Below are positions 197 to 49,509 of a DNA stretch of 64,000 nt, in pieces. The position numbers and the translations under genes were made by a program. Source of the stretch: Alphaproteobacteria bacterium (lineage in GTDB: Bacteria; Pseudomonadota; Alphaproteobacteria; MPNO01; UBA830); assembly GCA_964291215.2 (NCBI GenBank), contig OZ219791.1, positions 3,296,001 to 3,360,000 on the forward strand, written 5' to 3'. Position 1 is the stretch's first letter; the number at the start of each line of letters is the position of its first letter. A model generated the notes under the pieces. The model saw only the letters and a program-made list of their open reading frames with translations. It was not told where the DNA came from and made no database searches.

Positions 197-1486
197 GGTC
201 GTCTATGAAGCGCAGGTTCTCGTGTTTCACGAGACGTTCGTGCAGGTTGTGCGCGTTTGCGTCCACGTTTTCCTTTCGGCAGCGGCGGGATATCGGGCAG
301 TTCCCTGGCGCCCTGCGTGAGGATGGTGCGGTAGCGCTTGCGCACGGCCCGGCGTCGTTCAGGGTTTTGGATGCGCTCTTGTTGACCTTGTGGCAGGGAG
401 CAGGCTCTTCATAAGTCGCGCCCAGCGGTAGCCTCGACGACAAAGGTCAGTTCGCGCAGCAGGTGGCTGCCGCACAGCTGGTGGCTACACTGGCCCATGT
501 ACGAGGTCCAGCAGTCAGGACGCCCTTGTAGCACGGGATGATGCCGATCTCTTGCCTCCCGGCCGCGCTTGCGGTGCGGGAACTTGCACGTCAGGGTCCC
601 ACGACATGGAGCCACTTACTGTTGATCCGAAATCGTCGACATCGGGCGTTGCAGGAGGTGCGCCACGGCGGCCTCCTCCCATGACGCATCGTGAAAGCAT
701 AGCTGAGGCCTCGGAGAGCTTGATGCCGGAGATCGCCTGCACGAACGCGACGGCACGGCGCAGGGACAGCATTTGGGCGACCAGCAGGTTGATGACGAGG
801 GCCTGAATGCCGATGCCGTACTGCACGGGATGTTGTCGGGGAACCGGGCCTTGCACTTCGGGCATTCCTTGATCTCGGCGCGGCGCTCGACGACCTCGAA
901 CACGATGTCATAGAGGACGCGGCGCTCCCGATCGACGGGGCCGTCAGCGCCGCAGGCGTCGCAGGCCGCGACCGTTTCCTCGACGATGGCAGGTTGTCGC
1001 CCATCTGCCGGTTCGGCTTCGGGCCGTTGCTCCCGGCACGCTCTTGTCCGTCTGTGACGGCGGCAGACCGGAGTTCCGGCTCGTGCGTGGTCTTCTCCAG
1101 AAGGACGACGATGATGATGTCGAGCAGGATGACGAGGACGCGGATGACGGCCTCTTCCGCCACCTTGCCGGCAGCGCCGCGATCCGGGTCTTGGCCGCTT
1201 CGAACTCCTCGCGCGCCGCGTTGACCGTCGCCATCACCCGGCCTTGCGCTTCATCAGCGCGCCGCCTCCGAGATGCGTTTCCACATACAGATCATGCGGG
1301 GGCTGGAGCCCCGGAAGCAGCTGGCACAGCCCGCTCGTCGCCTTCGATCCAAAGTAGCCCACTGGCGGTCCCCGTCGTTCTCGATGACCACCACTAAGCG
1401 AATCGGCATGCAGTGTCAAATCTCCACGAAAACCCGTTCGTTGCTCTACCCCGACATCAAGCCGGAACCAGGGGGTGAGCAGTTAC
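197..1486 (-). mobile_element. IS66-family element, degraded (copy 1)
   Basis: IR GTAACTGCTCACCCCC at 1471-1486 (rc); TnpC fragments (CPKC zinc finger, AHNLHERL); homologous to 21755 and 41606 copies. Confidence 0.85.
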
Positions 1487-3125
1487 GATTTTTTGCAGTT
1501 TTCGCTGGCTTTCCTGTACTGAAGTTGTCATGGTGCGGGGATGTCGGTTCACAAGCACATCGCGTCCTGTTTGATTCACGTCGCAGCTCCGGAAGGGTCT
1601 GTCCGAGTCATATGAGGTCGAGGTTCGCGAAGCCTGAGGAGCATCCGCTGCGTTGATGGACGACTATCTCGGGTTTCGCCGTCTGGCGGGGCTGCGCCAT
1701 ATTGCGTCCTTCAGGGAGCAGTGGTCTGGCCGGGGCCTTCAAAGTGCCGCGACCGGTGGCTGGAAGCCGGAGCAGCAGTGGCTTGATCTGACAACACGCG
1801 ACTGCTTGCGGCGCCGGGAACGTTTCCGAACCTCGCCTCCTTCTTTCTTGCGACGCGGCGGCTGGCCGACGACTGGGCTGCGGCCACTAGGTGGCGGAGA
1901 CGTTCTGCGATCCGGAGCGTTTTGCGGGCACAAGGCGGCGGGCTGGCGTGCCAGGGGGTTTGCCCGCGGGGCTGCACCGGGCCCCATGGCAAGGAGATTT
2001 TTGTTGTGCGGCGCGACGGCTGCTGTCGCAGGCGCTGCGGTGGCGCCGCCTGCCTCCTCGCTCCCCGGGGTTCCGAAGTGATGTGTTCGCTGCACGACGA
2101 GCTGGCGGCGATCGAGGACTTCCGCCGCGCAGGAAGCACACGGTGTGCTCACGTTCTCGCCGAGCTTGCGAACATGAAAGGCAGCTGCGCAGTTTGCGCG
2201 GTCGCTGTCCCAGGATGAGCTCAGGGCCATCGGCGGAACCCAAGGACGGGGCTGCGCGAGCCGCCCTCCAAGGCGACCCTCCACCGGGCAGTTGATCGAT
2301 CCCGAGGCGCTCGAGGACATGCTCGGTCGCGGGCTCGCCCGGGCGCTTGCCGCCGACGGCAAGCGCATCCGCGGTGCCAACCGCCACCACGAGACCGTGG
2401 CCCTCACGCCTCCGGCGCACCCTTCGCGCTGTTGAACTTTGACGACGGCGAGCTGGCGGCCACCTCCTCGAGCGCACCGATGTTCGCGGCAAGGTGATCG
2501 CCAGGCGCTGCGGCGCAGACCATGTCTTCCCGGTCAAGGGCGCCCGAAACCTTCGACGGCATCGACCGGGAGACGGATGGCCGCTTCAAGGAGGCAAGGC
2601 CCGCCTCGAGCAGCGCTCGATACGTGCCGCTCAAGGGCTTGATCAACTACCTCGGCAGATCGCCCGCATGCTGCCGCAAGCCGCCGGGAAAGAGCGCCAG
2701 CGGCGCAGCGAGCGGCAACGACTGCACCGGTACATCAGCTCGATGCGCAACACGCGTCGCCAGAGGAACTGCTGCGGCCGCGGGCCGTGGAAAACATGAA
2801 CCACCGAGACTGCGTCTTCGGCGAGGACGCCTGCCTGACCCGCAAACCGCGTCAGCCTCGACAACATCGCGCTCGCGGTGATCTTCGCCAACCGACGCGA
2901 GAGCCTCGCCGAAACACGGCGGCAGTTCGACCGCCGGGAAGCCGTCGCAGCCCTGAGCGCCAATGGTGTCCGGCCGATTCCCGGACGCCGCCCACAACCC
3001 GCCCACGCGCCGATAACGCCGTCGGCGACGACCGCGGACGGCTCCGAAGCCGGAAAACCCGGCACGCCGTGAAACCTCCGGACAGCTGAAGACAGCAAAA
3101 TTGAATGCAGCATGAGAAACGCCTG
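1487..3125 (+). mobile_element. DUF4338-ISAs1 element, heavily degraded (copy A), left end truncated by IS66
   Basis: Colinear with 37854-39925; ISAs1 motifs DGKRIRG, VKG.PETF, VENMNH.DCVFGED. Confidence 0.85.
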
Positions 3126-20670: not shown

Positions 20671-20784
20671 GTCTCTACTCCCTATTATGGAAACAGTTTA
20701 CCCAAATCGGGTCGACTCGTCAACAGTTGCCGAAAAAAAAAATTTCTGCTAAATTGTGGGAGTGAACCGTTCACATCATCGCTT

Positions 20785-23851: not shown

Positions 23852-24354
23852 ACCTGCGCGAACTGACCTTTGTCGTCGAGGCTACCGCGCGACTGATGAA
23901 GAGCCTGCTCCGCGAGGTCTGCCACAAGGTCAACAAGAGCGCATCCAAAACCCTGAACGAGGCCGACCTCCGGGCCGTGCGCAAGCGCTACCGCACCATC
24001 CTCACTCAGGGCGCCAGGGAACTGCCCGACATCCCGCCGCCGCCGAAAGGAAAACGTGGACGCAAGTCCGACGCGCACAACCTGCACGAACGTCTCGTGA
24101 AACACGAAAAGTCAGTCCTGCGCTTCATAGACGACCCCGACGTCAGCTTCACCAACAATGCCAGAGAACAGAAGATCAGGATGGCAAAGGTCAAGGTGTC
24201 CGGATGCTTCCGCTCCACGCAAAAGCATGGTGCCAAGCTACCTCACCTCCATGGCCGCACTCGGCTACAACCCACTCGTCGCCACCCAGATCGCCCTCGA
24301 CGGAAAAGCCGCAGACATCATCAACGAGCACCACGACCAATCAGAACCCAACTA

Positions 24355-25525
24355 GTCACCTGAATCTAAAGTTCGTGGCATAAGTTTTTTTCGACGCGGA
24401 GACAGAAGCGCTTGACGGCGGCGAGGATTTCGTCAGCGGACTTTGTCCACTTGAAGGGCTTGGGATTTTCGTTGTGGGTTTTGATGAAGGCCCGGATGTC
24501 GGTTTCGAGTTGCAAGGTCGAGCGGTGGACGCCACGTTGCAACTGCTTGCGGGTCAGTTCGGCGAACCAGCGCTCGACCTGATTGAGCCACGAGGCGGAT
24601 GTCGGCGTGAAGTGGACGTGCCAGTGCGGCCGCCGGGCCAGCCAGGCTTTGACCGCGGCAGTCTTGTGGGTGGCGTAGTTGTCCATGACGATGTGGATGT
24701 CGAGGCCGTCCGGGATATTGCGGTCGATCACCTTGAGGAAGTCGAGGAACTCTTTGGCCCGGTGGCGTCTGTTGCCGATGACCGCGCCGGTGGCGATGTC
24801 GAGCGCGGCGAACAGCGAGGTCGTTCCGTTGCGCTTGTAGTCATGGGTGCGCCGCTCAGGGATGCCGGGCAGCAGGACCGGCTGGGTGCGGTCGAGGGCC
24901 TGGATCTGGCTCTTTTCGTCGACGCAGAGCACCAGCGCGCGATCCGGCGGCGAGAGGTAGAGGCCGACGATGTCGCGGACCTTATCGACGAAGTGCGGAT
25001 CACGAGAGAGCTTGAACGTCTCAGCTCGGTGCGGCTGCAGGCCGAAGGCGCCCCAGATGCGCCAGATCGACGTGTGCGACAGCCCCGCCTCCTTCGCCAT
25101 CGAGCGCAGCGACCAGTGGGTCGCGTCCGCGGGCGTCGAGGTGAGCGTGCGCTCGATCACTTCCGCCACCTTCTCGTCCGCGATGCTCCGCGGGCGTCCC
25201 GGCCGGGGCTCGTCCGAAAGCCCCTCGATGCGGTCCTTGACAAAGCGCTTGCGCCACTTGCCGACGGTGTGCTCGTGCACGCCGATCTCTGCGGCCACCG
25301 CCTTGTTGCCAAGCCCGTCCGCGCAACGCAGGATTATGCGGCAACGATCCGACAGCGAGCGCGCCACACGGTGGCGGCGCACCTGCGCCTCCAGATACGA
25401 CCGTTCCGAATTACTCAAGACCAGCACCGCCAAGGGCCGTCCTATACCGCGTGGCATCGCCATGACCTCCGTGTTCACACTCCGACCGCCATCATACAAT
25501 TATACTTACTTCAGTTCCAGATGAC
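24355..25525 (-). mobile_element. IS630-family element inserted at CTAG
   Basis: CTAG at 24352-55 and 25525-28; IRs GTCACCTGAATCT / AGTTCCAGATGAC. Confidence 0.9.
24366..25463 (-). CDS. IS630 transposase (open frame, two apparent 2-codon deletions)
   Basis: [26 protein letters not shown]. Confidence 0.9.
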
Positions 25526-25527
25526 TA

Positions 25528-26513: not shown

Positions 26514-26706
26514 CACAGTGATCCCACGCTGTTAATCCGGCGACGACTGGCGAGATTTTTTCAGTTTGCGTCGCGCTGCAATCGTGCCGCCAAGGCTTGA
26601 TGGGGCCTTCTCGGCACGAAAATTGTGATCAAGGAGGCGATTTGTGATGAGTCGAGCCCCAACGTATTCGGATTTCGCGTCTCCGAATTAGCATGGGATC
26701 GTCGTG
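26514..26706 (+). mobile_element. ISAs1-type MITE (copy 1)
   Basis: Ends CACAGTGATCCCACG / CATGGGATCGTCGTG resemble IRs of 43474-45398; 9-bp TSD CGCCGGGAC/CGCTGGGAC. Confidence 0.75.
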
Positions 26707-29218: not shown

Positions 29219-29255
29219 CGGAATGTCCGAACATTTCATCGCACAACAGGGAGAA

Positions 29256-29906: not shown

Positions 29907-30042
29907 CCGGGAGGCGAATCGATGGCCCGCGCAGCAGCCGGATCGGCCCCTCTTCTGCCGGACAAGGCGTTCCGCCACGGTCGGCAGCACTCGCTGCCGC
30001 CGGATCGGGGCGTCCGGTCGCCGCAAGGACTGGTTGTCTGAC

Positions 30043-33654: not shown

Positions 33655-33828
33655 CACGACGATCCCATGCTAATTCGGAGACGCGAAATCCGAATGCGTT
33701 GGGGCTCGGGTCATCACAGATCGCCTCCTTGATCGCAATTTTCGTGCCGAGAAGGTCCCATCGAGCCTTTGCGGTACGATTGCAGCGCGACGCAAACTGA
33801 AAAAATCTTGCCAGTCGTCGCCGAATTA
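33655..33828 (-). mobile_element. ISAs1-type MITE (copy 2, inverted, truncated by ISNCY)
   Basis: 174-bp inverted match to 26533-26706, 11 mismatches, no indels. Confidence 0.8.
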
Positions 33829-36800
33829 GTGCCCGCAAGAAAAAGTACAATTATTTGATTCCAATACCTGAATCGCGGTATGGGCGAAACGAAAAATCCC
33901 GCTTTGGGGCGGGAATCGGCCGGTTTGACCGAGAATCAACCGGATTTTCAGGAAACTTCGCGAGAATAGCCATGCGAGACGTCATCCGCCCTCAGTTGGA
34001 ATTGGGACAGGTTGCGATCGAGAAGATCGATCTCAACGAGAACTCGCGGGACGACATGCGCGGGATTCAGCACGTGTACGCCGACCCGGCTGTTTGAGAT
34101 CCTGGAGGAGGGGATCCTTCCGAGAGTATCCCACAGGAAAGGGCGTCCCGGCGCTGTGGAAGATCCTGGTGTCCTGAAGCAGGGCCTGGGGTATGACTTC
34201 GATCACCTGCACGAGCTGATGAACGAGATGGTTCGCAAGTTCCTGGGTCACATCTGGTACGACACACGCTACGGGCATCAGACGGTGGTGGACAACGTGA
34301 GCCAGCTGACGCCGGAAGTGCTGGGGAAGGTGTCGCAACTGGTCGCGGAGAGCGGCCATGCGATGATACGTAGCAAAGATTGTCCCAAGTCGGACGGTTC
34401 TCTGCGAGGCCGCTGCGATTCGTTCGTGGTGGAGGTGCACTACCCGACGGACATCAATCTTCTGTGGGATGCGTTGTCTGGTGCGCGATACAGGCCGCGC
34501 AGCGTGCGCACGGGAATGATCGAATGGCGTCAGTGGAAGCATCGGACCCGGGTATTACAGAAGCACTTTCAGAAGGTCCGTCGGGCCTCTTCGGAGGATG
34601 GTACCTCGACGCCGGCTGGGAGTTGGGGTGCAAGAGACGGTTCCTGTATTTCTGGAGAAGGGCGTTGAGGCCCTCGCAGTTCTCAAGATCGAGTCGTATC
34701 TCAAGCATGCCCGCCGACAGATCGACCAAGTGGACCGCCGCCTAAGGCGAGAAGATCCCGCAGGAAGAGAAGGTGTTTTCGATCTTCGAGGAGCGCTGGT
34801 GCGTGAAGGGCAGTGCCGGTGGGAGCGCCAGGCTAACTGGTAGGATGTCGCCGGGTGAGAGTTCCGGCAGGAAGAGAGGCTAACCACCACTTCCTCCGTG
34901 AACCATGCGTCGTGAGGCGAAGCGTTGGGGAGCGGCAAGCCGGGCTATTGAGCCACGAGATACTGTGAAACCGGAGTGCCGAGGTCGTCCACCAGGCCGA
35001 AGGCAACACCCTGCGAGCCGCGTTTGGTGAGGCGAGCAGGGCTCCGCGGGGTCTGAGAACCATGGCTGAAGCAGGGACCCGGGAGGTCTTGCCCCACTGT
35101 CGTAGAGGGGTCGCAGAGGAAAGGAACTATTCCGTAACCCGATGATGAACGAGAAGTCAGATTCGGCCATAGTACCGTCGAAGGCGGCGAACAAGGGTTC
35201 CTCGGAGCCTGCGGAGCTGCTGGAGGGAAGGGAAATGCGGTTGGCCCGCGCCGCGCAGAAGCGGGAAAGCGGGTCACAGGCGGCGCATACGACAAGTTGC
35301 GAAGAGGAATCCGGAAGAGCGTCTTGTGACGTTGCTCCATCACGTGATGTCCTGCACGCGGCGTTTCACTCCTTGAGAAAGGACGCGGCAGCGGGCGTGG
35401 ACGGAGTTACGTGGCACGCGTATGCGGAAGGTGTGGAACTGGTCGACCTGCCGTGTGCCCAGGGGTGCGTATCGGGCGCCTCCGTCGGGCATACATACCC
35501 AAGGAGGGCAACGACCGCTTGCCTCGGACAAGATTCTTAAGCGGGCAGTGACGGACACGATTCTGGTACCGCGAGACGGAGTTCCTCGGGTTCAGTTATG
35601 GTTTCCGGCCGGGACGCACAACGCGCTCGATGCAGTCACGGTGGAACGGCGGAAGGTCAACTGGATCGTTGACGCCCCTTCGACAATCTCGACCACCTGG
35701 TCGCGATGCTCGAGAGACGGATCGGGGGGTCTGATCATCAAGTGACGCTGGCGTCATGGAGCGACACCGGTGTTGGTTCGCCGCAGGGCGCAGCCCCTGC
35801 CTGGCGAACGTTTACCTGCACTACGTGACTGGTTTCAGAACCATTGGCGCAAACGGATGACTGACACGATCATCGTGCGCTATGCGGATGATTTTGTGTG
35901 CGGCTTTCAGGATCAGGGCGATGCGAAGCGCTGGGACCTCGGGGAGAGGTTGGCTCACTTGAACTGCACCCGGACAATCATCGAGTTCGGTCGGTTTGCG
36001 AGAGCGAACCGCCGGAAGCGGGGGCAAGACGTTCGACTTCCTCGGTATGAGGCACTATTGCGAGCAGACGTGGAAGGGCAAGTTCAGGGTCGGCCGCAAA
36101 CCATCCCGGAAACGGGCACCTTGCGGCGGATCAAGGAGGCGCTGCGCAAGCGGTGGCACGACAACCGGCACAAGACGGCCAAGTGGCGAGTGATCAAAGG
36201 CTGCTACTACGCCGTTCCGGGAAGCAGCCTGCAGGGGTTCATATACCAATGCAAACGGCTGCGTGCCCTTCGGCGGCGTTCCCAAAAGGATCGCACCGAA
36301 TGGAGGGACATGGACACCCTCATCGAAGCTCACTGGCCTAAGGCCAGCATCCGCCACCCGTGGCCAAACCAGCGCCTTGTCGTCAGGACCTGAGGGAGGA
36401 GCGAACAGCGCAAGTCCGGATCTGTGCGGGGGAACCGGGGAAACCCGGTTCCCTACCGCGATAACTCGGCGTGCCGGTGGCCGTTCTGGAGGATCAGCAC
36501 GGCTTTCTTCTGCACCACCGGATCCTGTGGGAAGGCAGTGACGCGGACCATGCGGTGCCCATGATCCGTGAAGTACAGGCCCGCTTCCCCGATCTGCGCC
36601 TGTGCAGTTTCGATCGGGGGTTCCACAGTCCTCGGGTCGCACTGGACGAACTACTGGATGTGCTTCCGAAGAAAAGGATGCTCTCGGACCGGGAACGGGA
36701 AGCTGAGACGACATTCCGGGAGATGCGCCGGCAGCATCCGGCTGTGGAGTCCGCGATCAACAATCTCGAGCAACGCGGCATGGACCGGGTCCTGTCCTAT

Positions 36801-37800: not shown

Positions 37801-37853
37801 CGGGCGGAAGACCGACCTGCTCTGGATGGGGACGATCCGCTACCCTTGCATTC

Positions 37854-39925
37854 CAGGACTTTCTCACGCTGCATTCGATCTTGTCGACTGCTGATGGAGG
37901 GAGGTTGTACAACCTGCCGGGTTTTCTGGCTTCAGGGCCGTCCGCGGTCGTCGCCGGCGGCGTTGCCGGTGCGCGGGCGGGTTGTTTTCGGGATGTGGGC
38001 GGGTTGTGGGCGGTGTCCGGGAATCGGCCGGACGCCATTGGCGCTCAGGGCTGAATCAGAGCTGCGACGGCTTCTCGGCGGTCGAGCTGCAGCCGCCGCC
38101 GTGTTTCGGCGAGGCTCTCGCGTCGGTTGGCGAAGATCACCGCGAGCGCGATGTTGTTGAGGCTGGCGCGGTTTGCGGGGCCGTTGCCGGTGCGTGTCAG
38201 GCAGGCATCTTCGCCGAAGACGCAGTCTCTCTGGCGGTGGTTCATGTTTTCCACAGCCCAGTGCCCGCGATTGAGCCGCAGCAGTTCCTCTGGCGACGCG
38301 TGTTGCGCATCGAGCGAGGTGATGATGTATTCGGTACAGTCGTTGCCGCTCGCTGCGCCGCTGGCGCTCTTTCCCAGCGGCTCACGGTAGCGCTTGATGC
38401 GGGCGATCTGGCTGATGCCGGGGTAGTTGATCAAGCCCTTGAGCGGCGTCAGGACACGTATCGAGCGCTGCTCGAGGCGTCCGTGGGCCTTGTCTAACTT
38501 TTCCTTGAAGCGGCCGCTGGCATCTGTCTCCCAGTCGATGCCGTCGAGGATATCGAAGGTTTCGGGCGCATTGCCCTTGACCGAGAAAACATAGTCTGCG
38601 CCGCAGCGCCGGGTGATCAGCGCCGCCGTCTTGCGCGTCGTGGCGTCGAGGGTGATCACCTTGCCGCGGACATCGGTGCGCTCGAGGAGGTGGCCGCCAA
38701 CTCACCTCCCTCGTCGTCGAAATTCAACAGCGCGAAGGGTGCGCCGGAGGCGTGAGAGCCACGGTCTCGTGGTGGCCGTCGCCGTTGCGGTTGGCGCCGC
38801 GGATGCGCTTGCCGTCGGCGGCAAGCGCTCGGGCGAGCCTGCGCCCGCCATAGCGGCCGAGTACATCCTCGAGCGCCTCGGGGTCGATCGACTGCCCGGT
38901 GGAGGGTCGCCTTGGAGGGCGGCTCGCGCAGCTCCGTCCTCGGGTTCCGCCATGCGCCGATGGCCTCGAGCTCGTCCTGAGACAGCGACCGCGCAAACTG
39001 CGCAGCTGCGAGGCAGCCTTTCATGTTCGCAAGCTCGGCGAGAACGTGTACCGTGAGCACGCAGGCCACCGTGTGCTTCCTGCCCTGCGCGCGGCGGAAG
39101 TCCTCGATCGCCGCCAACTCTTCGTGCAGCGAACGCATCACCTCGGAACCCCGGGGAGCGAGGAGGCAGGCGGCGCTACCGCAGCGCCTGCGGACGTGAC
39201 AGCAGCCGCCGGGCGTCGCGCCGCAGCGGCACAACGAAAATCTCCTTGGGCTTACCATGGGGGTCGGTGTAGCGCCCGTTGGCGCGGGCAAACCCCTTGG
39301 TCCGGCGCACGCCAGCCTGCCGCCTTGTGCCCGCAAAACGCGCCGGATCGCAGAATGTCTCCGCCACAACCACCTGGTGGCCGTAGGCCTCCAGCCAATC
39401 GTCGGCCAGCCGCCGCGTCATATGCGCAAGAAAGAAGGAGGCAAGGTTCGGAAACGTTCCCGGCGCCGCAAGTACCAGCAGTCGCGTGTTGTTCGCGATC
39501 AGATCAAGCCGCCGGAACTGCTGCTCTGACTTCCAGCCAATCCACCGGTCGCGGCACTTGAAGGCCCCGTTCTGCCACGCCGCCAGACCCAGCCACTGCC
39601 CCCTGAAGGACGCAATGTAGCGCAGACCGCGTCCTGCCAGACGGCGAAACCCGAGATAATGATGCTCGTCCATCAACGCATCCCACAGCAGACGCTCCTC
39701 AGGCTTCGCGAACCTCAACCTCGGACAGGCGAAACCCTTCCGGAGCTGCGACGTGAATCGGACAGGATGCGATGTGCTTGTGAACCGACATCCCCGCACC
39801 ATGACAACTTCAGTGCAAGAAAGCCAGCGAAAACTGTAAAAAAATCTCCCGCACCAACCCGCGACCCCGCAAAGCCCAGGTACTGCCTTGAAAAATCAGA
39901 CAGAATTTAGCGTAAGACCACCCTG
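37854..39925 (-). mobile_element. DUF4338-ISAs1 element (copy C, least eroded)
   Basis: IRs CAGGGTGGTCTTACG / CAGGACTTTCTCACG; TSD CTTGCATTC; HYLGF..RDRWIGW..NNTR, VITLDA, GHWAVEN. Confidence 0.93.
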
Positions 39926-40070
39926 CTTGCATTCCGACATCGATTGAGCGCGGCCACGAAACCGTCTATGTTGTCCATGTCGCTCCAGCGTGAACCCGGC
40001 ATCCGCGCCGCAGGATGTGGAAGGCTTCGCAAGGACTGGGGATGGGGAGGACAGCAGTTGTCTTTTTGTG

Positions 40071-40101
40071 TTATACAACATTAATTCATACTGTTGTATA
40101 A
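40071..40101. promoter_or_regulatory. Palindromic operator upstream of NTase gene
   Basis: TTATACAACA-N11-TGTTGTATAA perfect inverted repeat. Confidence 0.6.
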
Positions 40102-40103
40102 TC

Positions 40104-41135
40104 ATGACCAACGATCTCCGGTTCCACAGCCACACCGGCAACGCCGCTTATCACGACCTTCGGCGGCTCCTCATGGACGCCGCAGTGTCCGAAATCCGCG
40201 GTACGCCAACCCGGATTGCCGTCAAGGGCCGCCATTTCTGGTATGACAAATACCGGATCGGCGATGAGGTGCGACAACGCTACATCGGACCCGAAACCAA
40301 CGAACTACTCGCCAGACTGGGCCGCCTAGGCCGGTCGAACGCCGACCGCAGGGCATTGCAGCAGGAGCAGGCCCGCCTCGTCCGGCTCCTGAGAGCCAGC
40401 AACTACCGATCGATGGATCGCGGCACCGGCAGCCTCTTGGCTGCATTCGCCAGATGCGGTGTCTTCCGCCTGGGCGGCACGCTGGTCGGGACGGTCGCCT
40501 TCCAGCACTACGAGGGCGAACTCGGCGTGGTCATGGACTTCGACCAGACCGCCCGCACCGACGATATTGATATCGCTAGCTTCGAACGACTGTCCTTCGC
40601 GCTTGGCGACAGTGTTGAAACACCGCTGGATGACGTCTTCCGGGACCTGAAGTTCCAGCCCGTTCCCTCTCTGGACCGGCAGCACGTCTGGCGCTGGCGC
40701 CAGACAAGCGGACCGGTCCTGGTCGAGTTCCTGATGCCGGCGCACGGGAAAGAAGGTGTGCGCAAACTGCCGGCCCTGGGCGTCAGCGCTCGGGCCCTGC
40801 ACCATCTCGACTATCTCTTCGAGGACCCCGTTCCGGCTGTGTCGCTCTACCGATCCGGCGTGCTCGTCCAGATCCCGCGGCCTGAACGCTACGCCATGCA
40901 CAAGCTGATCGTGGCTGAACGGCGTCACGACGGGCCGGACTCGTTGAAAGCTGCAAAGGACCGTGCCCAGGCGGATTTTCTCATCGCTGCCTTGGCAGAG
41001 CTGCGCCCGGATGAATTACGTCTGGCCCATGACGAAGCCATGGAGCGCGGGCCCGGCTGGCGCAACCGGATCAAAGCCAGCTTGGACAGGCTGCCGGACG
41101 CAAAGGAACACCTGCTTGAGACAGCCGGCGGCTGA
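40104..41135 (+). CDS. GSU2403-family nucleotidyltransferase-fold protein
   Basis: QRYIGP, GGTLVGT.AF, TDDIDI, PERYAMHKL, KDRAQA. Confidence 0.88.
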   Translation: MTNDLRFHSHTGNAAYHDLRRLLMDAAVSEIRGTPTRIAVKGRHFWYDKYRIGDEVRQRYIGPETNELLARLGRLGRSNADRRALQQEQARLVRLLRASNYRSMDRGTGSLLAAFARCGVFRLGGTLVGTVAFQHYEGELGVVMDFDQTARTDDIDIASFERLSFALGDSVETPLDDVFRDLKFQPVPSLDRQHVWRWRQTSGPVLVEFLMPAHGKEGVRKLPALGVSARALHHLDYLFEDPVPAVSLYRSGVLVQIPRPERYAMHKLIVAERRHDGPDSLKAAKDRAQADFLIAALAELRPDELRLAHDEAMERGPGWRNRIKASLDRLPDAKEHLLETAGG

Positions 41136-41399
41136 GCTCAACCATACCCGGCCTCCGCTGAGAGGGACTGATGTACAGCACATCTCCGAAGTGACGCCGG
41201 CACGGCTGCGGGACTTCGCGCCCTTCCGTCGGCCTTGGGGCAGTGCATCCGCAGGCTCGCGCCGTCCTGCGACGTGTCGGAAAGACCTGCGGGGCCACGA
41301 GTTCCGACCGGTGGAGCATCGCATCACTGGGGGCTGTCAGTGATTAGTCCCGATCGATCTGTCCATGGTAAATCTCGCTGCGCGTTCAGTTGCATGGCC

Positions 41400-41605
41400 G
41401 TATCTACTCACCCCTAGTTGGGTTCTGATTGGTCGTAGTGCTCGTTGATGATGTCTGCGGCTTTTCCGTCGAGGGCGATCTGGGTGGCGACGAGTGGGTT
41501 GTAGCTGAGTGCGGCCATGGAGGTGAGGTAGCTTGAGCCCCGGCACCATGCTTTTGCGTGGAGCATGGTGCGGAAGCATCCGGATACCTTGACCTTTGCC
41601 ATCCT
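41400..41605 (-). mobile_element. IS66 3' end fragment
   Basis: IRR GTATCTACTCACCCC; matches 24176-24355. Confidence 0.85.
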
Positions 41606-43120
41606 GTAACTGCTCACCCCTGGTTCCGGCTTGATGTCGGGGTAGAGCAACGAACGGGTTTTCGTGGAGATTTGACACTGCAGGCCGTTTCGTTTAGTGG
41701 TGGTCATTGAGAACGACGGGGACCGCCAGTGAGCTACTTTGGATCGAAGGCGACGAGCGGGCTGTGCTATCGGAGGCGGCGCGCTGATGAAGCGCAAGGC
41801 CGGGCGGCGGAGTACCGGAAGATGCCGCCGGGCGAGCGCCAGGCGATGCTCGCGACGATCATGACCGTCGAGGCCGGGTGATGGCGACGGTCAACGCGGC
41901 GTCGCTGCGCGAAGAGTTCGAAGCGGCCAAGACCCGGATCACGGCGCTGCGTGCGGCCGGCAAGGTGCCGAAAGAGGCCGTGATCCGCGTCCTCGTCATC
42001 CTGCTCGACATCATCATCGTCGTCCTTCTGGAGAAGACCACGCACGAGCCGGAGCTCCGGTCTGCCGCCGTCACAGACGGACAAGGACGAGAGCGTGCCG
42101 GGAGCAACGGCAAGGGCCCGAAGCCGAACCGGCAGATGGGCGACAACCTGCGCAAGATCATCGTTGAGGAGACGGTCGCGGCCTGCGACGCCTGCGGCGC
42201 CGACGGCGTCGACCCCGTCGATCGGGAGCGCCGCACGACATCGTGTTCGAGGTCGTCGAGCGCCGCGCCGAGATCAAGGAATGCCCGAAGTGCAAGGCCC
42301 GGGGCCGGTTCCCCGACAACATCCCGTGCAGTACGGCATCGGCATCAAGGCCCTCGTCATCAACCTGCTGGTCGCCCAGATGCTGTCCCTGCGCCGTGCC
42401 GTCGCGTTCGTGCAGGCGATCTCCGGCATCAAGCTCTCCGAGGCAACCTGCCTCGGCTATGCTTTCACGATGCGTCATGGGAGGAGGCCGCCGTGGCGCA
42501 CAGTTCGTGGCGGCGATGGAGGATGTACTTGACATTTATCAGCGGGACTTTGCCGGGGACGAGGTGCTGGTGTGCATGGATGAAACCAGCCGGCAGCAGA
42601 CGAAGGAAACCCCCCGTCCTCCGGTCAGCCGGAGGTGGTCAACTATGAATATGAGCGCAACGGCACGGCCAACCTCTTCATGGCCTTTGCGCCCAACGAG
42701 AACTGGCGCACGGTGAAAGTCACCGACCGCCGCGGGACTGGGCGCACTTCATCCGGGAGCTTGCCGACGACCATTTCCCCGACAGGAAGATCGTGCCGGA
42801 CAATCTGAACACGCACAGTCACTGTATGAAGCCTTCGAGCCCGAGGAGGCGGGTACGAAAGCGGTTCGAGTTTCGCTATACGCCGAAGCATGGAAGCTGG
42901 CTCAACATGGCCGAGATCGGTGCGCTGTCGCGGCAATGCCTTCGGCGACGCATTCCCGACCGCGACACCATGCTGCGGGAGACCGTGGCGTGGGTCGAGC
43001 GCCGCAATGCGGCCGATGTCACTGTCGACTGGCGTTTCACGACGAAGGATGCCCGGACGAAACTGAAGTCACTATATCCATCAATCTAATAATGTTAAAC
43101 TACTAGAGGTGAGTAGATAC
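41606..43120 (+). mobile_element. IS66 (copy 3) whose 3' half is replaced by an IS630 remnant
   Basis: IRL at 41606, IRR GGTGAGTAGATAC ending 43120. Confidence 0.85.
42505..43103 (+). pseudogene. IS630-family transposase 3' remnant (second subfamily)
   Basis: VCMDET, YERNGTANLF, DNLNTH, YTPKHGSWLNMAEI, KLKSLYP. Confidence 0.85.
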
Positions 43121-43218
43121 CCGCCGGGTTGCCGATCCGATCAGGTAGAAGCGGAAAGGCGAAACCGATTGAGCGTGGAAGGCTGGTGTAGCTGGCGGCC
43201 CCGCGCGTGACCGTGCCG

Positions 43219-43453
43219 ATGACGATAGCTTGGAGAAAACCCCTCGCTCCCGGCGTGCCACAAGACCGCCCACGGCATCGGAGCAGCTTGGGCGCTGTGG
43301 CCATTTCCCGACGGGCCACCCAAGCACGATCTCACCAACTGGACCGCCATCGATGACTGGCCCGATCCCGTGCCGTTTGTGGAGGCCGAGATCGATGTGT
43401 TCGAGCGATGGTTTGGCGACCTGTTCGATGAACTGTTCGACCCGGATTTCTGA
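43219..43453 (+). pseudogene. Small acidic protein remnant
   Basis: DDWPDPVPFVEAEIDVFERWFGDLFDELF*; ATG is in a different frame. Confidence 0.4.
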
Positions 43454-43473
43454 GTGTCTCCATGCCGGGGCCG

Positions 43474-45398
43474 CACGGCGATCCCACGCTAGGTTTGTTG
43501 GAAGGGTCGGTTTTGCTTGTTCAGGATGATTCGCATTTTCGCTGGCTTTTTGTGAAGCGGCGTAGTATCCGTTGTCGTGGGGGCAGCGGATTTTTTTGAG
43601 ACGACTCTGGAGGGTTTTGCGCTCCGGGATGTGGTTGTGCGCCTTGCGCGGCCTGATGTCGCTGGAACCGTGTTGTTGACCGTATCTTGGTTTCAAGCAG
43701 TTTGCCGGTCGAGGTCTGCGTATTCACTTGGCGCGGGCGGTGGATTGGTGCTGCGGGCTGGCAGACGGGCGCCCTCAGCTGCGCACCCGTTGGCTGGCGC
43801 CGCGAGGAACAGTTCAGGCGGTTGCCGGGAACAACACGAGGTTTGTTGTTCTTGGTGGTCGTTTCCGGGCCTCGTTTGTGTTGTCGCGGATGGTGCGGCG
43901 GCGACTGGGAGGCTGCCGTTGCTTGTTGCGGAGTCGTTTGTCTCGCCGACGAAGTTCAGCGGCACCATGTACAAGGCAGCGAACTGGGAGTGCGTTGGCA
44001 GGAGCTATGCGCGCGCCAGCGGGCGCTATACCGACCGGGGAGGCGAAGGATCTTTACGTGTTTCCGCTGCGTCGTGACGTCGGCTGCGGGATCGTTCGCC
44101 GCTTCCTGTGGCGTGGGAGTTGCGGGCGCCGCTGGTCGGCGCAGGAGTTGCGCTCGATTTATCAGCGGCGCTTTCCGGCGCGCGCAGGGGCACCGCGGCG
44201 ACGCCTGGAGCTACGACGACGAATTCGTCCGACTTCCGGCGCGCGCAGGGGCGCAAGCACCGCATCGCCTCGGTGCTGTGCGTGATTTTGCTGGCTTGCG
44301 AACCGGCACGGTGCGGTTGCGGCGGCGCACTACGCGATGACGCAGAAGGAGCTGGAGCAGCATGGAAGAACAGGGACAAGCCGGTTTCCAAATCGACCGT
44401 GCACCGGGTGCTGCAGAACACCGACCCGGGATGGATCGAGGATGCGGCGCGCAGCCGCGCCTGGAGGTCGGCAACGCGGTCGACGGCAAGCGCATCCGCG
44501 GCCGCACCGGCGAGGATCATTACGAGACGGTCTCGCTGGCCGGTATTCGATCCTCAACTATCACGACGGGGAGATCGCTGCCGTCCACGCCGCGACGGCA
44601 CCGGTTGCCGGCCGTCTGCTCACCCTCGACGCGCTCCATACCACCCGCGAGACCGCGCGGCTGATCGTCGAGACCCATCGCGCGGACTGGATGATGATGG
44701 TCAAGGGCAACGCGCCCGAGACCTTCGAGACCTTCGAGAGCATCAACTGGAAGACCGCCAGCGCTACAACGAAAAGCCCGCGCATGGCCGCCAGCGCACC
44801 ATCGAGGTCTTCACCCCGCTGGCGAAGATGATCAACTAGTCAAGCAGATCTTCCGCGTCACCCGACGCGTCGAATTCAAGAAATCCAGAAAACGGACAAC
44901 CGAATACGCCATGACCTCGGTCAAGCGCGCCTCGCCGCAACAGCTGCTCGCATGGAATCGCGGACACTGGGTAGTCGAGAGCCACCATCATGTCCGCGAT
45001 GCCACCTTCCGCGAAGACGACTCCATGCTCCGAACGCGCCAGCAAACAACGCGATCACCCTCGCAATCGCCGTCATCATCCGCAACAAACGCAAGCTGCC
45101 CAAACCCTTCAACAGCTTCGTCGACGCCCGCCACCACTATGCCGACAAGCGCAAGCAGGTCCTGCACGCAATCACAAGACCAGGCTGACCGCGCCTCTCT
45201 CCCCGACAGAAACTGCAAGCTCTCGAGCCCGGCAACCAAACCCGGCAGGCCTCTCGCTCACCCCGGATACGCCGACCAATCGCGCCCCGCGCCGTAACAG
45301 CGCGTCAGCAAATCTCAAAATCGCAGCCTCGAACGCGTCGACCCGCGCCACGATCAGGACTCCGATCACATCACATCAACAAGCATGGGATCACCTTG
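43474..45398 (+). mobile_element. Second DUF4338-ISAs1 subfamily element, heavily degraded
   Basis: IRs CACGGCGATCCCACG / CATGGGATCACCTTG; perfect 10-bp TSD GCCGGGGCCG. Confidence 0.9.
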
Positions 45399-45453
45399 GC
45401 CGGGGCCGGAGTCAGGCTTGCAAATGGTACCAATAACTGATACTGACCACTTC

Positions 45454-45708
45454 ATGAAAAAGCGCCATAGAGCCACGCTGGAACTGATCTTCGTCCGCCC
45501 CGTCAACGGCTCAATCCGCTGGTCCGACATTGAGGCGCTGTTTGCCGCTCTTGGGGCGGAAATCAGCGAACGGGAAGGTTCGAGAATAGGCGTGTTTCTG
45601 TTTGGCGAAGTTCGCGTCTTTCACCGCCCGCATCCGTCACCGGATACGGACAAGGGTGCGGTTGCCAGTATTCGCAAGTGGCTGGAAGAACACGGAGTGA
45701 AACCATGA
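45454..45708 (+). CDS. hicA: HicA toxin
   Basis: W.DIEALF..LGA.I.E..GSR, FHRPHP. Confidence 0.92.
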   Translation: MKKRHRATLELIFVRPVNGSIRWSDIEALFAALGAEISEREGSRIGVFLFGEVRVFHRPHPSPDTDKGAVASIRKWLEEHGVKP

Positions 45709-46055
45709 TCAATGTGATCGAGATCGATGGGGAGAAGGCGGTCGTTACCTTTGACTCAGACATTCAGATGCTGCGCGGCGAGTTTATCGGGCTGAATGGC
45801 GGCGCCGACTTCTATGCCGAGAGTGTCCACGATCTGATCGAGGAAGGCCGGAAATCGCTGGCGGTCTATCTGGAGATGTGTCGGGAAAAGGGCATCGAAC
45901 CGGGCCGAAAATTTTCCGGGAAGTTCAATGTCCGCCTCGATCCTTCCGATCATGCCGCAGCAGTCATTGCAGCCGCCGCAGCGGGCAAGAGCCTGAATGA
46001 ATGGGTCGTCGGGGCGATCAGGGAAGCCGCCGAGAGTGGCAACCAGGCGGCCTGA
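45705..46055 (+). CDS. hicB: HicB antitoxin
   Basis: ATGA overlap; ADFYA, FSGKFNVR, SLNEW. Confidence 0.92.
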   Translation: MINVIEIDGEKAVVTFDSDIQMLRGEFIGLNGGADFYAESVHDLIEEGRKSLAVYLEMCREKGIEPGRKFSGKFNVRLDPSDHAAAVIAAAAAGKSLNEWVVGAIREAAESGNQAA

Positions 46056-47780
46056 TCTTGAGCCTATGACTGGATCGTTTCGGTATCGACATATGTTTGA
46101 GAAGGAGACCGGGCATGAACGCCCCCGCTTCCACCATCACTCGGCACGCTGCCCCTTAGCTGTGCGTCTCGACGGCGCGTCAGGCCCAGCATGAGGTCTC
46201 CATTCCCGACCAGAAGCGACAAGGCGAAGTCCAGGGTGGTCTTACGCTAAATTCTGTCTGATTTTTCAAGGCAGTACCTGGGCTTTGCGGGGTCGCGGGT
46301 TGGTGCGGGAGATTTTTTTACAGTTTTCGCTGGCTTTCTTGCACTGAAGTTGTCATGGTGCGGGGATGTCGGTTCACAAGCACATCGCATCCTGTCCGAT
46401 TCACGTCGCAGCTCCGGAAGGGTCTGTCCGAGGTTGAGGTTCGCGAAGCCTGAGGAGCGTCCGCTGTGGGATGCGTTGATGGACGACTATCTCGGGTTTC
46501 GCCGTCTGGCGGGGCTGCGCTATATTGCGTCCTTCAGGGGGCAGTGGCTGGGTCTGGCGGCGTGACGGGGCCTTCAAGTGCCGCGACCGGTGGATTGGCT
46601 GGAAGCCGGAGCAGCAGGGCTTGATCTGACAACACGCGACTGCTTGCGGCGCCGGGAACGTTTCCGAACCTTGCCTCCTTCTTTCTTGCGACGCGGCGGC
46701 TGGCCGACGATTGGCTGGAGGCCTACGGCCACCAGGTGGCGGAGACGTTCTGCGATCCGGCGCGTTTTGCGGGCACAAGGCGGCAGGCTGGTGTGCCAAG
46801 GGGTTTGCCCGCGGGCGCTACACCGACCCCCATGGTAAGGAGATTTTCGTTGTGCGGCGCGACGGCTGCTGTCGCAGGCGCTGCGGTAGCGCCGCCTGCC
46901 TCCTCGCTCCCCGGGGTTCCGAGGTGATGCGTTCGCTGCACGAAGAGTTGGCGGCGATCGAGGACTTCCGCCGCGCAGGAAGCACACGGTGTGCTCACGT
47001 TCTCGCCGAGCTTGCGAACATGAAAGGCAGCTGCGCAGTTTGCGCGGTCGCTGTCTCAGGACGAGGCCATCGGCGGAACCCGGGGACGGAGCTGCGCGAG
47101 CCGCCCTCCAAGGCGACCCTCCACTGGGCAGTCGATCGACCCCGAGGCGCTTGAGGATGTACTCGGCCGCGGGCTCGCCCGAGCGCTTGCCGCCGACGGC
47201 AAGCGCATCCGCGGCGCTAACCGCAACGGCCACCACGAGACCGTGGCTCTCACGCATCCGGCGCACCCTTCGCGCTGTTGAATTTCGACGACGGTGAGCT
47301 GGCGGCCACCTCCTCGAGCGCACCGATGTCCGCGGCAAGGTGATCACCCTCGACGCCGGCGGCGCTGATCACCCGGCGCTGCGGCGCAGACTATGTCTTC
47401 TCGGTCAAAGGCAATGCGCCCGAAACCTTCGACATCCTCGACGGCATCGACTGGGAGACAGATGGCCGCTTCAAGGAAGAGTAAGGCCCGCCTCGAGCAG
47501 CGCGTGCCGCTCAAGGGCTTGATCAACTACCCCGGCCAGATCGCCCGCATCAAGCGCTACCGCGAGCCGCTGGGAAAGAGCGCCAGCGGCGCAGCGAGCG
47601 GCAACGACTGTACCGATACATCATCACCTTATATGACTAGGTTTTGTCCCCTTGATGATGAAATCATCCACAGCAGTTGGGGGCGGGAAAATGTGGATCT
47701 GTGGGAGAGCTATGGTTGCAGAGAGATTCCGCTCCCCTGAGCGAACACGCACAGGGGAGCGGGGATCAAACGATCTCCGC

Positions 47781-47904
47781 GGAGGTTGCCGTTTTCACCT
47801 TGACAGGGCCGCGAGCGAGTGTGGTCGGCCAACCTCCCTTGACGTCCCTCGCATGGATGCTTGGGTTTGAACCCGTATCATCGTAAGGCGAGGAGCAAGG
47901 GACG
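47781..47904 (+). ncRNA. IS110 bridge RNA target- and donor-binding loops
   Basis: Two stem-loops whose internal loops match the target (TCACCT; CGAGCGAG) and donor (CATGGATGCT; TAAG). Confidence 0.8.
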
Positions 47905-48636
47905 ATGGTCAAGATAGTAGCAGGGGTCAGCCAGTCTGGACATCTGGCGCATTGTTTTGCGAACGACGCCACGGGCAAGTGGCTTCGCGGCCTCGGGGTG
48001 AGCCGGGTGGTGGGCGACAGGCCGCTATCACCGCAAGGTTCACCAGTGTCTTCATGACCGGGGCTTCGAGGTTATTCTCGTCAACCCGTTGCGGGCGCTT
48101 CGCCGAGGCGATGGGCCATCTGGCCGACCGCGTCGACGCCAAGATCGGCTGGGCGATCTTGAGCCTGTGGCTCCGCCTTCCTCAAGAGCCTGGAGGATCT
48201 CCTGGTGCCGCGCTTGTCGACGCCAAGCAGGTGGCAGATGAGGTGGATGGCGAGACCGTCACAAGGGCCTCAGCGGCCGATCTCGATGACCGCATTGCCG
48301 GCGCGGCGATCAAAGCGGTGATCGCCGGTGATCCCGAGCAGAGGTACCCTGACCTCGATCCGGTGACCGCCGCAGCCCTTCTGGATGCCCGAACTCGGCA
48401 GCGTCGGCAGGCGGCAGCCTTGATCGGGGTGGCGCCGATGGCCAACGACTACGGTGCTCGGCACATCCGTGGCGGGCGCCGAAGGCCACGCGATCTCCTG
48501 GCCGCGACCGGCACGCTTCAACGCGGACCTGGTGCGCCTCAAGACTGCCGGCAAGCAAGGTCGCGATTGTCGCCGTGATGCGCAAGCTCTGGCGAACACC
48601 TTGCTGCGACAGCAGCGTTGCCTGAAGTACCGGTGA

Positions 48637-48837
48637 GTGAGCGAAGGAGACACGGCCCTCACCCCTGCCGAGAGCGCGATCGGGACTGTCTCGACAGTCT
48701 CCCTCTACGACACGACTTGGGGAGAATGTCTGCAGATCATCGTCGAGGTCGACATCAAGGAGATCGAACCGCCTTGGGACACCTGGAACCCGGACGGTCA
48801 CGTGCCCGGGGACGGCAAGGTAGCCGCGTTCACGTGA
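48637..48837 (+). CDS. Small acidic hypothetical protein inside IS110
   Basis: 66-aa open frame downstream of the recombinase. Confidence 0.4.
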   Translation: MSEGDTALTPAESAIGTVSTVSLYDTTWGECLQIIVEVDIKEIEPPWDTWNPDGHVPGDGKVAAFT

Positions 48838-49509
48838 CCAATGGACGGCAACCCGCCGCCGGGACCACAAGCTTCATGTCGCCTCGCTCGCAGAGCAAAC
48901 CCCACACCGCTTGTGGACAACCACAGAAAACATCACCACAGACACCCGCAAAAACCTTGCCAAGAAACATGGATGCTCGCTCGATGCGCAACACGCCAGA
49001 GGAACCGCTGCGGCCGCGGGCCGTGGAAAACATGAACCACCGAGACTGCGTTTTCGGCGAAGACGCCTGCCTGACACGCCCGCAAACCGCGCCAGCCTCA
49101 ACAACATCGCGCTCGCGGTGATCTTCCGACGCGAGAGCCTCGCCGAAACACGGCGGCGGCTCGACCGCCGAGAAGCCGTCGCAGCTCTGATTCGGCCCTG
49201 AGCGCCAATGGCGTCCGGCCGATTCCCGGACGCCGCCCACAACCCGCCTACATCCCGAAAACAACCCGCCCACGCGCCGGCAACGCCGCCGGCGACGACC
49301 GCGGACGGCCCCAAAGCCAGAAAACCCGGCAGGTTGTACAACCCCCCTCCATCAGCAGTCGACAAGATCGAATGCAGCGTGAGAAAGTCCTGGCCTCCAA
49401 GACGAAGCGCTTGTCATCGGACCCTCCCGGGTGTAAACTTACCGTCTTCGATGCGACTTTACGTATCGTCGGTGATGATGGCTTTTCATGCGTCCCGGCG
49501 GCACAACCT

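What the first reader, a model, noticed from the sequence alone, without database searches (positions are those of the whole stretch)
37854..49392. Mobile elements are shredded by size-restricted 5-8 nt deletions: candidate MGE-silencing process
SEEN: hand alignment of ISAs1 copy C (rc 39740-38760) to copy D (46420-47240) gives about 24 deletions in ~1 kb. All are 5-8 nt (mostly 6, then 7), there are no insertions and few substitutions. Many sit at 1-5 nt microhomologies, e.g. ggtAAGcccAAGga to ggtAAGga, ctCACGgtaCACGtt to ctCACGtt, gaCGAGctCGAGgc to gaCGAGgc. Similar short-gap damage is apparent in unrelated families (IS66, IS256, IS630, ISNCY, IS110) and in the group II intron (7 nt lost from domain V at ~36411). 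Host genes, hicAB, the NTase, T4CP and relaxase remain open. KNOWN: neutral pseudogene decay and slippage give mainly 1-nt indels and a broad size tail. INFERENCE: a tight 6-7 nt mode suggests repeated nuclease cuts with short resection and end-joining aimed at mobile DNA, a deletion analogue of fungal RIP. The responsible enzyme is not identifiable in this window.
Basis: partly seen in the sequence, partly recalled or inferred. Interest (0 to 1): 0.92.

Follow-up and report, generated by a model that had tools for sequence, protein, structure and literature searches.

The report
Repeat-directed 5–7-base deletion drive
In this bacterium nearly every jumping-gene family with many copies is riddled with the same 5–7-base deletions at fixed sites, while single-copy DNA is spared, and the deletions likely spread from copy to copy through a one-way repair step by an unidentified enzyme, which would act as a self-propagating brake on mobile DNA.

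Summary
Copy C vs D has 23 gaps (22 of 5–8 nt), no insertions. Across 1.6 Mb of repeats, 15,833 of 20,431 deletions are 5–7 nt. An intact outgroup shows they are losses (897 vs 8). Microhomology is only modestly enriched, Ku and LigD were not found, and identical deletions recur at fixed sites in most copies and assort almost independently. The target is long repeats, not mobility as such: multi-copy host genes are hit, while low-copy IS, short MITEs, IS ends and single-copy genes are spared. In a young 11-copy burst, sites deleted in the older copies are already 76% deleted (92 of 121), against 15% for those copies' SNPs. A young family without damaged close kin gained none. Best reading (about 0.55): copy-to-copy conversion that removes 5–8-nt loops one way, with mismatch repair likely setting the lower size limit. 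One same-genus genome shows a weaker 5–6-nt form; six other relatives sampled show none. No enzyme was identified. Ten literature searches found no description.

The parts
37845..39925 (-). ISAs1-family element, copy C (DruA-like N-terminal region plus ISAs1 transposase); lightly damaged, recent arrival
   Evidence: NF033564, PF14236; 14 deletions of 5-8 nt vs outgroup L269; a strain in run X3 joins 37844 to 39926 directly, an empty site (table 8, record 17)
39990..41135 (+). Single-copy nucleotidyltransferase, open frame (control)
   Evidence: PF12281; X1 and X2 contigs match without gaps
41400..42501 (.). Two pieces of the highest-copy family (family 0; IS66-like by ends and motifs, name recalled, no Pfam hit on the fragments)
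   Evidence: 10 deletions of 5-7 nt in 41606-42501 and one in 41400-41606; 0 of 173 copies covering at least 60% are free of such deletions
42496..43106 (+). IS630-family fragment (family 7)
   Evidence: PF13358; 5 deletions of 5-7 nt
43473..45398 (+). Second ISAs1-type element (family 9)
   Evidence: NF033564 on sister copy L230; 21 deletions of 5-8 nt plus one of 11 nt
45385..46055 (+). hicA-hicB toxin-antitoxin pair, open frames (control)
   Evidence: PF07927, PF05534
46232..47629 (+). ISAs1-family copy D, first part, heavily deleted
47626..48979 (+). IS110-family composite element (family 8) inserted into copy D, with an ISNCY-like piece at 48691-48982
   Evidence: PF02371 on sister copy L229; NF033593 below cut-off on sister copy L231; 33 deletions of 5-8 nt plus 5 longer
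48976..49392 (+). ISAs1-family copy D, last part
   Evidence: 6 deletions of 5-7 nt; continues copy C homology
36255..36462 (+). 3' end of a group II intron with 7 nt missing from domain V
   Evidence: alignment to the intron end at window 1-196, itself missing 6, 6 and 7 nt; Rfam RF02005 and RF00029
22558..23851 (.). IS256-family copy (family 1), same damage, outside the finding
   Evidence: NF033543 on sister copy L227; 12 deletions of 5-7 nt
24352..25527 (-). Nearly intact IS630 (family 45, low copy): only two 6-nt deletions
   Evidence: NF033545
26514..26706 (.). 190-bp MITE (family 3, 106 copies; a second copy at 33655-33829), no deletion: neutral multi-copy control
197..3125 (.). Further family 0 and ISAs1 copies with the same damage
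   Evidence: 35 deletions of 5-8 nt in 1495-2956

Best explanation
The genome's long repeats carry thousands of identical 5-7-base deletions at fixed sites, and these are likely passed from damaged to intact copies by a one-way, short-patch conversion step that removes the looped-out bases when two copies pair. SHOWN: size window, deletion polarity, recurrence at the same sites, near-independent assortment beyond about 25 nt, dependence on matching flanks within about 12 nt, confinement to long multi-copy DNA, speed far above point mutation, and patchy SNP exchange between copies. INFERRED: (1) copies pair, by RecA-type strand exchange or annealing of short fragments; (2) the extra 5-8 bases of the intact strand form a loop; (3) an unidentified structure-specific nuclease with a mild GAN-then-cut preference clips the loop and the nick is sealed, so deletions are gained and seldom lost; (4) loops of up to 3-4 nt and SNPs go through intact MutS/MutL instead, which would set the lower size limit; (5) new deletions arise rarely, partly as slips of the same step, and each then sweeps its family. 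The result: none of the eight highest-copy transposase families checked retains a near-full-length frame.
For: Polarity: 897 deletions vs 8 insertions of 5-8 nt in 33 copies against outgroup L269. Recurrence: 165 family-0 copies share 103 sites yet form 165 distinct patterns, with four-gamete failure in 96% of 1046 site pairs; single sites reach 172 of 181 copies. Drive: 325 of 583 distinct 5-7-nt deletions exceed 50% frequency vs 2 of 75 of 1-4 nt (180 rare events overlapping hot sites set aside; some families overlap). Young family 24: at 11 sites deleted in all 3 older copies, 92 of 121 young-copy states are deleted, with intact alleles scattered among different young copies; SNP alleles shared by all 3 older copies reached 13 of 88; at 3 sites where older copies are mostly intact, at most 4 of 33 young states are intact (one rare alternative site not counted). 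SNP patches from older copies appear in young ones. Equally young family 21 (12 copies, about 1 private SNP each, no close damaged kin): no new 5-9-nt deletion, and its 18-69-nt deletions stayed single. Footprint: private SNPs are depleted beside deleted junctions (ratio 0.31 at 1-3 nt, 0.5-0.6 at 4-12, 0.88 at 21-30); neighbours under 20 nt apart are nested or exclusive. Targeting: median load rises 0.4, 2.6, 9.6, 13.5, 15.2 per kb with copy number in families over 700 bp; 106 MITE copies have 63 substitutions but 0.75 deletions per kb; the outer 100 bp of IS have 0-0.09 hot sites per 25 bp vs 0.2-0.6 inside; FN3 and RTX-repeat paralogues show more 6-nt than 3-nt gaps (24 vs 10, 26 vs 14); 289 single-copy genes show 62, 36, 19 gaps of 1, 2, 3 codons. 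MutS, MutL, RecA, RecJ are intact. Bulges over 3 nt are not repaired by E. coli MMR (PMC5416779, passage).
Against: No enzyme found: EndoV, T4 EndoVII, S1/P1, NucS and RecT were not found in G000. A nearest-neighbour trio test gave 52 gains vs 90 losses, the wrong direction at face value; I think parallel gains and shuffled haplotypes make it uninformative, but it gives no support. In family 45 an old copy's private deletions with clean flanks (e.g. positions 231, 281, 422, 900) reached 0 of 4 younger copies. In G002 the four most damaged copies are not a clade and hold private deletions, so de novo formation may be frequent in some copies. Copies only 78-84% identical share a deletion when the 8-nt flanks match (11 of 15), which suggests short homology, while spared ends and MITEs suggest long homology; this tension is unresolved. 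Rare deletions overlap hot sites 36 of 84 vs 17.7 expected, which fits repeated cutting as well. The upper limit at 7-8 nt is unexplained. The strain-level single-copy control (20 kb, 192 SNPs, at most one 5-6-nt event) is about 95% coding by a crude estimate.
Confidence: 0.55

Rival explanations
1. Guide-directed cutting with memory: short nucleic-acid guides made from repeat copies direct a nuclease to fixed sites in intact copies, a precise 5-7-nt excision destroys the site, and the resistant allele accumulates (partly by repair from sister copies).
For: Fixed sites without a strong motif (cross-validated AUC 0.73-0.80); about 12-nt footprint on each side; some SNPs 4-9 nt away protect fully; alternative outcomes cluster at hot sites; sharing follows local rather than global identity.
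Against: None of 111 CRISPR spacers matches an IS family; no Piwi domain in 5 of 5 genus genomes (short or divergent Argonautes could be missed); no cluster of short IS-matching stretches outside repeats (21 scattered); short guides would not obviously spare IS ends and MITEs; SNPs inside the deleted bases show no clear protection (inconclusive).
Confidence: 0.2
2. RIP-like de novo mutagenesis: pairing of repeats licenses a nuclease to cut out 5-7 nt at sequence-preferred sites with no template, so recurrence reflects site preference.
For: GAN-edge preference already in singletons (1.7-fold) and in G002; private deletions concentrated in single copies; length and copy-number dependence as in RIP.
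Against: Young family 21 gained none in 12 copies; about 1-3% of positions are hot yet local sequence predicts them poorly; nested dependence between neighbours; sites are not centred on inter-copy mismatches (8 of 18 vs 10 expected; 22 of 56 vs 18.4); no Ku or LigD.
Confidence: 0.13
3. A past or general mutational bias towards 5-7-nt deletions, purged from genes by selection, shuffled among copies by ordinary unbiased gene conversion.
For: SNPs are shuffled too (LD falls to background by about 40 nt); trio test shows no excess of gains; 6-nt excess is known in pseudogenes (PMC6054270, section 18).
Against: Neutral MITEs and IS ends have normal substitution but almost no deletions; single-copy genes show no 2-codon excess although 6-nt events outnumber 3-nt events 7842 to 192 in repeats; the process acts in a very young family; frequency spectra of deletions and SNPs differ sharply.
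Confidence: 0.09
4. Assembly or polishing artefact.
For: Only assembled contigs of runs with unrecorded library type could be laid; per-copy phasing is unverified.
Against: Junction variants occur in three runs from three samples; single-copy DNA matches X2; MITEs and family 21 are clean; an outgroup confirms strict polarity; a second genome shows a shifted size window.
Confidence: 0.03

Closest known systems
Deletion-biased nonallelic gene conversion (Assis and Kondrashov 2012, PMC3280953; part 1 of 3 read)
   Same: Paralogues pass deletions to each other more often than insertions, at rates far above mutation, and shrink together.
   Different: Described in Drosophila and primates with a bias of about 3.4-fold and no narrow size window; here bacterial, near one-way, confined to 5-8 nt, sparing ends and short repeats, and breaking every high-copy transposase family checked.
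Repeat-induced point mutation (RIP) of fungi (recalled)
   Same: Acts on repeats by copy number and length, not on mobility as such; disables transposons.
   Different: RIP makes untemplated C-to-T changes in a dinucleotide context; here substitutions show no context and the lesions are deletions that recur identically.
Gene conversion among bacterial IS copies (Cordaux 2009, seen only as a reference title in PMC3205602; scan notes e1-187647, e1-461217)
   Same: Defective alleles move between resident IS copies.
   Different: Those are single alleles or homogenisation; here dozens of sites per family, size-gated and directional.
Small deletions in symbiont pseudogenes (Danneels et al. 2018, PMC6054270; passages and section 18 read)
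   Same: Short deletions, some at microhomologies, with an excess at multiples of 3, in genomes lacking Ku/LigD.
   Different: Their sizes follow a power law with 1 nt commonest (131 of size 1 vs 44-45 of sizes 2-3); here 5 and 7 nt are as prominent as 6, and 1-4 nt are minor.
Mismatch-repair escape of large loops in oligonucleotide recombination (PMC5416779, passage)
   Same: Loops above 3-4 nt pass MutS, matching the sharp lower edge.
   Different: Escape alone has no direction and no upper limit; no RecT-type annealase was found.

Membership tests
Biased gene conversion between paralogues | Alleles are exchanged between non-allelic copies in patches | tested here: met
   SNP patches of older copies in young copies; LD decays within about 40 nt
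Biased gene conversion between paralogues | Directional transfer favouring the deletion | tested here: inconclusive
   Family 24 supports it (92 of 121 vs at most 4 of 33); trio test does not (52 gains, 90 losses)
Biased gene conversion between paralogues | Needs a donor copy carrying the allele | tested here: inconclusive
   Family 21 without damaged kin gains none; private deletions in single copies of family 45 and G002 lack a visible donor
RIP | C-to-T hypermutation in a dinucleotide context | tested here: not met
   Ordinary transition spectrum without context bias
RIP | Restricted to repeats above a length threshold | tested here: met
Ku/LigD non-homologous end joining | Ku and an ATP-dependent ligase | tested here: not met
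   0 of 5 genus genomes for PF02735 and PF01068
Microhomology-mediated end joining (A-EJ) | Most junctions at microhomology, variable and often long deletions | tested here: not met
   24-40% of junctions have none; sizes fixed at 5-8 nt and identical across copies
CRISPR self-targeting | Spacers matching the mutated sites | tested here: not met
   111 spacers, no match of full length to IS families or elsewhere in the genome
Prokaryotic Argonaute | PIWI-domain protein | tested here: inconclusive
   PF02171 not found in 5 of 5; short or divergent forms not searched
Prokaryotic Argonaute | Small guide population enriched for repeats | not testable with these tools
   No small-RNA or small-DNA data
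NucS/EndoMS repair | NucS gene and cuts centred on mismatches | tested here: not met
   Not found in G000 (two weak hits in G002); deletions not centred on SNPs
Endonuclease V repair | nfi gene | tested here: not met
   0 of 5 genus genomes, 3 of 78 in the order
Ordinary pseudogene decay | Power-law indel sizes with 1 nt commonest | tested here: not met
   669 of 1 nt vs 15,833 of 5-7 nt

The most novel reading that the evidence does not exclude
This lineage has a dedicated, so far unknown anti-transposon system, a bacterial deletion counterpart of RIP: an enzyme that recognises paired repeats, writes 5-7-base deletions into them and then uses damaged copies as a heritable memory to cut the same bases out of every new copy, so that any element that multiplies is switched off within the time of about one point mutation.
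Probability: 0.3. Interest if true: 0.97.

Novelty: new variant of a known kind. Interest (0 to 1): 0.86.

Why it matters
Bacteria are not known (from my own knowledge and ten searches of the held library) to have a RIP-like process that edits repeats in place. Here one has removed about 133 kb and broken every high-copy transposase family checked, while leaving single-copy genes alone. It bears on how bacteria survive transposon explosions and on how loops too large for mismatch repair are handled. The pattern is easy to screen for in long-read genomes, and graded relatives (strong, weak, none) make a search for the enzyme feasible. A nuclease that removes 5-8-base loops one way would also be a precise deletion tool.

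Tried and rejected
Whole-genome self-BLAST timed out; its partial output gave the first spectrum, later replaced by family analysis. A first family build had a masking fault and was redone. Motif searches found no restriction-type site or PAM at any offset, only a local G|NT(C)...(G)AN|C tendency. No asymmetry relative to the coding strand (strand calls uncertain for two families). Hairpin flanks are only slightly enriched. CRISPR spacers, Piwi, Ku, ATP ligase, NucS, EndoVII, S1/P1, RecT and EndoV were not found in G000; no match does not prove absence. Reverse transcriptases track the signature (19, 7, 6 hits in G000, G001, G002; 0 in G003, G004), but they are group II intron relics and track general mobile load, so I did not adopt this. 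The trio test and the inside-loop SNP test were inconclusive. The 'disrupted single-copy' class is mostly off-frame artefact and gave no true pseudogene set. The one genome-collection scan used an off-frame query and returned little. The 21-mer was not found in 400 other genomes of the phylum, and only 3 of 54 metagenome loci aligned to the element over 200 nt. G001 (220 contigs) was not assessed for the signature. Scan look-ups by place and by a first set of words returned nothing.


Full report
SETTING. The window is G000:C2:3296001-3360000 of a 6.15-Mb, two-contig genome, 99.3% complete. Its 16S is about 88.6% identical to alphaproteobacterial records; habitat was not determined. About 2.07 Mb lies in repeats. 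I built 116 repeat families from the genome. Several overlap (13/17, 8/19, 16/48/73), so counts over families are not fully independent; genome totals are from the non-redundant count. Deletions fixed in all or all but one copy are invisible to the consensus, so loads are underestimates, most in small families.

OBSERVATION. Copy C against D gives 23 gaps, all missing from D: 2x5, 11x6, 8x7, 1x8, 1x12, with 14 substitutions. The intron domain V loss and damage in the other window elements are confirmed, and NTase, hicAB, T4CP and relaxase are open. Genome-wide, 1.60 Mb of repeats hold 45,536 substitutions and 20,431 deletions: 669 of 1 nt, 158, 192, 317 of 2-4 nt, 3517, 7842, 4474, 708 of 5-8 nt, and an echo at 11-14 nt; about 133 kb is lost. 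An intact ISAs1 relative from a metagenome contig (L269) gives independent polarity: 897 deletions against 8 insertions of 5-8 nt in 33 copies, with 14 already in copy C; three such outgroup copies differ among themselves by no 5-7-nt gap. Contigs of three runs carry junction variants, and one strain lacks copy C at a clean empty site. Microhomology is enriched only modestly.

THE DELETIONS RECUR. Each family has a limited set of sites: 103 in 165 near-full family-0 copies, median 27 per copy, every copy a different combination, four-gamete failure 96%, r2 about 0.03. Of distinct 5-7-nt deletions 325 of 583 exceed half of the copies, against 2 of 75 for 1-4 nt; among 86 clean singletons 34 are 1 nt and 25 are 5-7 nt (180 rare events overlapping hot sites set aside). 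SNPs are mostly private (1078 of 1861) with an ordinary spectrum, and common SNPs are shuffled too. Neighbouring deletions under about 20 nt apart are nested (e.g. 82 both, 42 first only, 0 second only) or exclusive. Private SNPs are depleted within about 12 nt of deleted junctions. Copies 78-84% identical carry the same deletion in 11 of 15 cases with matching 8-nt flanks and 6 of 123 with two or more mismatches. Local sequence has a mild effect (GA one base before the cut: 53 of 112 high-frequency sites vs 23.8 expected; AUC 0.73-0.80).

SPEED AND DIRECTION. In family 24, eleven young copies differ by a few SNPs yet by many deletions. At 11 sites deleted in all three older copies, 92 of 121 young states are deleted and the intact alleles sit in different young copies, so the founder was most likely intact there. 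SNP alleles shared by the three older copies reached 13 of 88. At three sites where older copies are mostly intact, only 4 of 33 young states are intact. Patches of older-copy SNPs in young copies show exchange directly. Family 21, twelve copies of similar age with no close damaged kin, has gained no 5-9-nt deletion. Across 90 pairs chosen for near identity there are 533 deletion differences and 346 SNP differences (the choice favours low SNP counts). Against: the trio test gave 52 gains and 90 losses, and private deletions of an old family-45 copy did not reach 4 younger copies.

THE TARGET IS LONG REPEATS. Load rises with copy number, and families under 700 bp stay low. MITE family 3 (106 copies) has 62.6 substitutions but 0.75 deletions per kb, family 12 none. 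The outer 100 bp of IS are nearly free of hot sites though substituted normally, including coding ends in several families. Near internal breakpoints the load is slightly reduced (0.84 rising to 0.97 of expectation). Multi-copy FN3 and RTX-repeat host genes show more 6-nt than 3-nt gaps and few of 5 or 7, as expected if frame-keeping events survive selection. Two- to three-copy repeats mostly have none (56-84% of pairs by divergence class), and low-copy IS66 transposases are intact. In 289 single-copy genes gaps fall 62, 36, 19 for 1-3 codons; 220 kb aligned to G004 hold two 6-nt gaps; a strain differing by 192 SNPs over 20 kb has at most one 5-6-nt event, in mostly coding DNA.

RELATIVES. 5-7-nt gaps per kb between repeat copies in sampled regions: G002 3.7 (5 and 6 only), G004 0.33, G003 0.47 (4 pairs), G053 0.13, G037 and G051 0.01, G047 0 (samples of about 100-440 kb; copies in G037, G047 and G051 are young). 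In 58 alignments of one G002 family the deletions recur at shared sites with the same edge preference, but about half the copies have none and four unrelated copies hold 7-13. High copy number alone is therefore not enough.

MECHANISM. I commit to one-way removal of 5-8-nt loops when an intact copy pairs with a damaged one (0.55). It accounts for identical recurrence, the 12-nt footprint, nesting, dependence on damaged kin and copy number. Intact MutS/MutL and the known escape of loops over 3 nt (PMC5416779, passage) would explain the lower edge. Pairing route, nuclease, upper size limit and origin of new deletions are inferred or open. Guide-directed cutting (0.2) and untemplated pairing-triggered cutting (0.13) remain. 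Ku, LigD-type ligase, Piwi, NucS, EndoVII, S1/P1, RecT and EndoV were not found, and CRISPR spacers (type I-G-like and II-C-like arrays; type names recalled from repeats and gene order) do not match.

COMPARISON AND NOVELTY. It works like RIP in effect and like deletion-biased nonallelic conversion in mechanism (PMC3280953, part 1 of 3 read), but fails RIP's defining mutation and goes beyond the known conversion bias in strength and size gating. Symbiont pseudogene deletions follow a power law (PMC6054270, passages and section 18). PMC3205602 (passages) describes degraded Wolbachia IS without such a window in the passages seen. Ten library searches (listings only, apart from the four papers named) showed no description; this does not cover subscription literature. 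Verdict: real, genome-wide, strange and testable; new variant of a known kind on present evidence, categorically new if a dedicated enzyme is found.

Noticed in passing
L122:700-3300 (G000:C1:476943-479301) and 11 sister copies: Family 21: an IS66 element with an intact Dam-like adenine methyltransferase passenger (TIGR00571, weak) amplified recently to 12 near-identical copies, although its transposase is frameshifted near the start; the catalytic part carries only in-frame gaps against a G004 homologue. It may be an escapee or be moved in trans.
   Followed up: partly
window 37845-39925: A strain in run X3 lacks copy C at a precise empty site, so this insertion postdates a split of about 1% sequence divergence, yet C already has 14 short deletions.
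   Followed up: partly
G000:C1:574173-600000 and C2:2063981-2069513: Three CRISPR systems: a 97-repeat array with type I-G-like genes followed by Cmr-like genes, and a Cas9 locus with 16 repeats; no spacer targets the genome's own IS.
   Followed up: partly
families 3, 12, 23, 54, 68 (e.g. window 26514-26706): Five unrelated MITE-like families are all 188-195 bp long; whether this length reflects escape from the deletion process is untested.
   Followed up: no
L199-L205, L026, L030 (G002): G002's ISAs1-like family often lies in runs of adjacent copies; its size window is 5-6 nt with almost no 7, suggesting a lineage-specific ruler.
   Followed up: partly
window 27269-33615: Single-copy T4 coupling protein and TrwC relaxase genes are intact although mobile in origin; an intact IS1595 transposase lies at 19729-20670 and a Panacea antitoxin domain at 20545-21300.
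   Followed up: no
window 39179-39895 (-): The ISAs1 transposases here are fused to an N-terminal DruA-like (PF14236) region.
   Followed up: no
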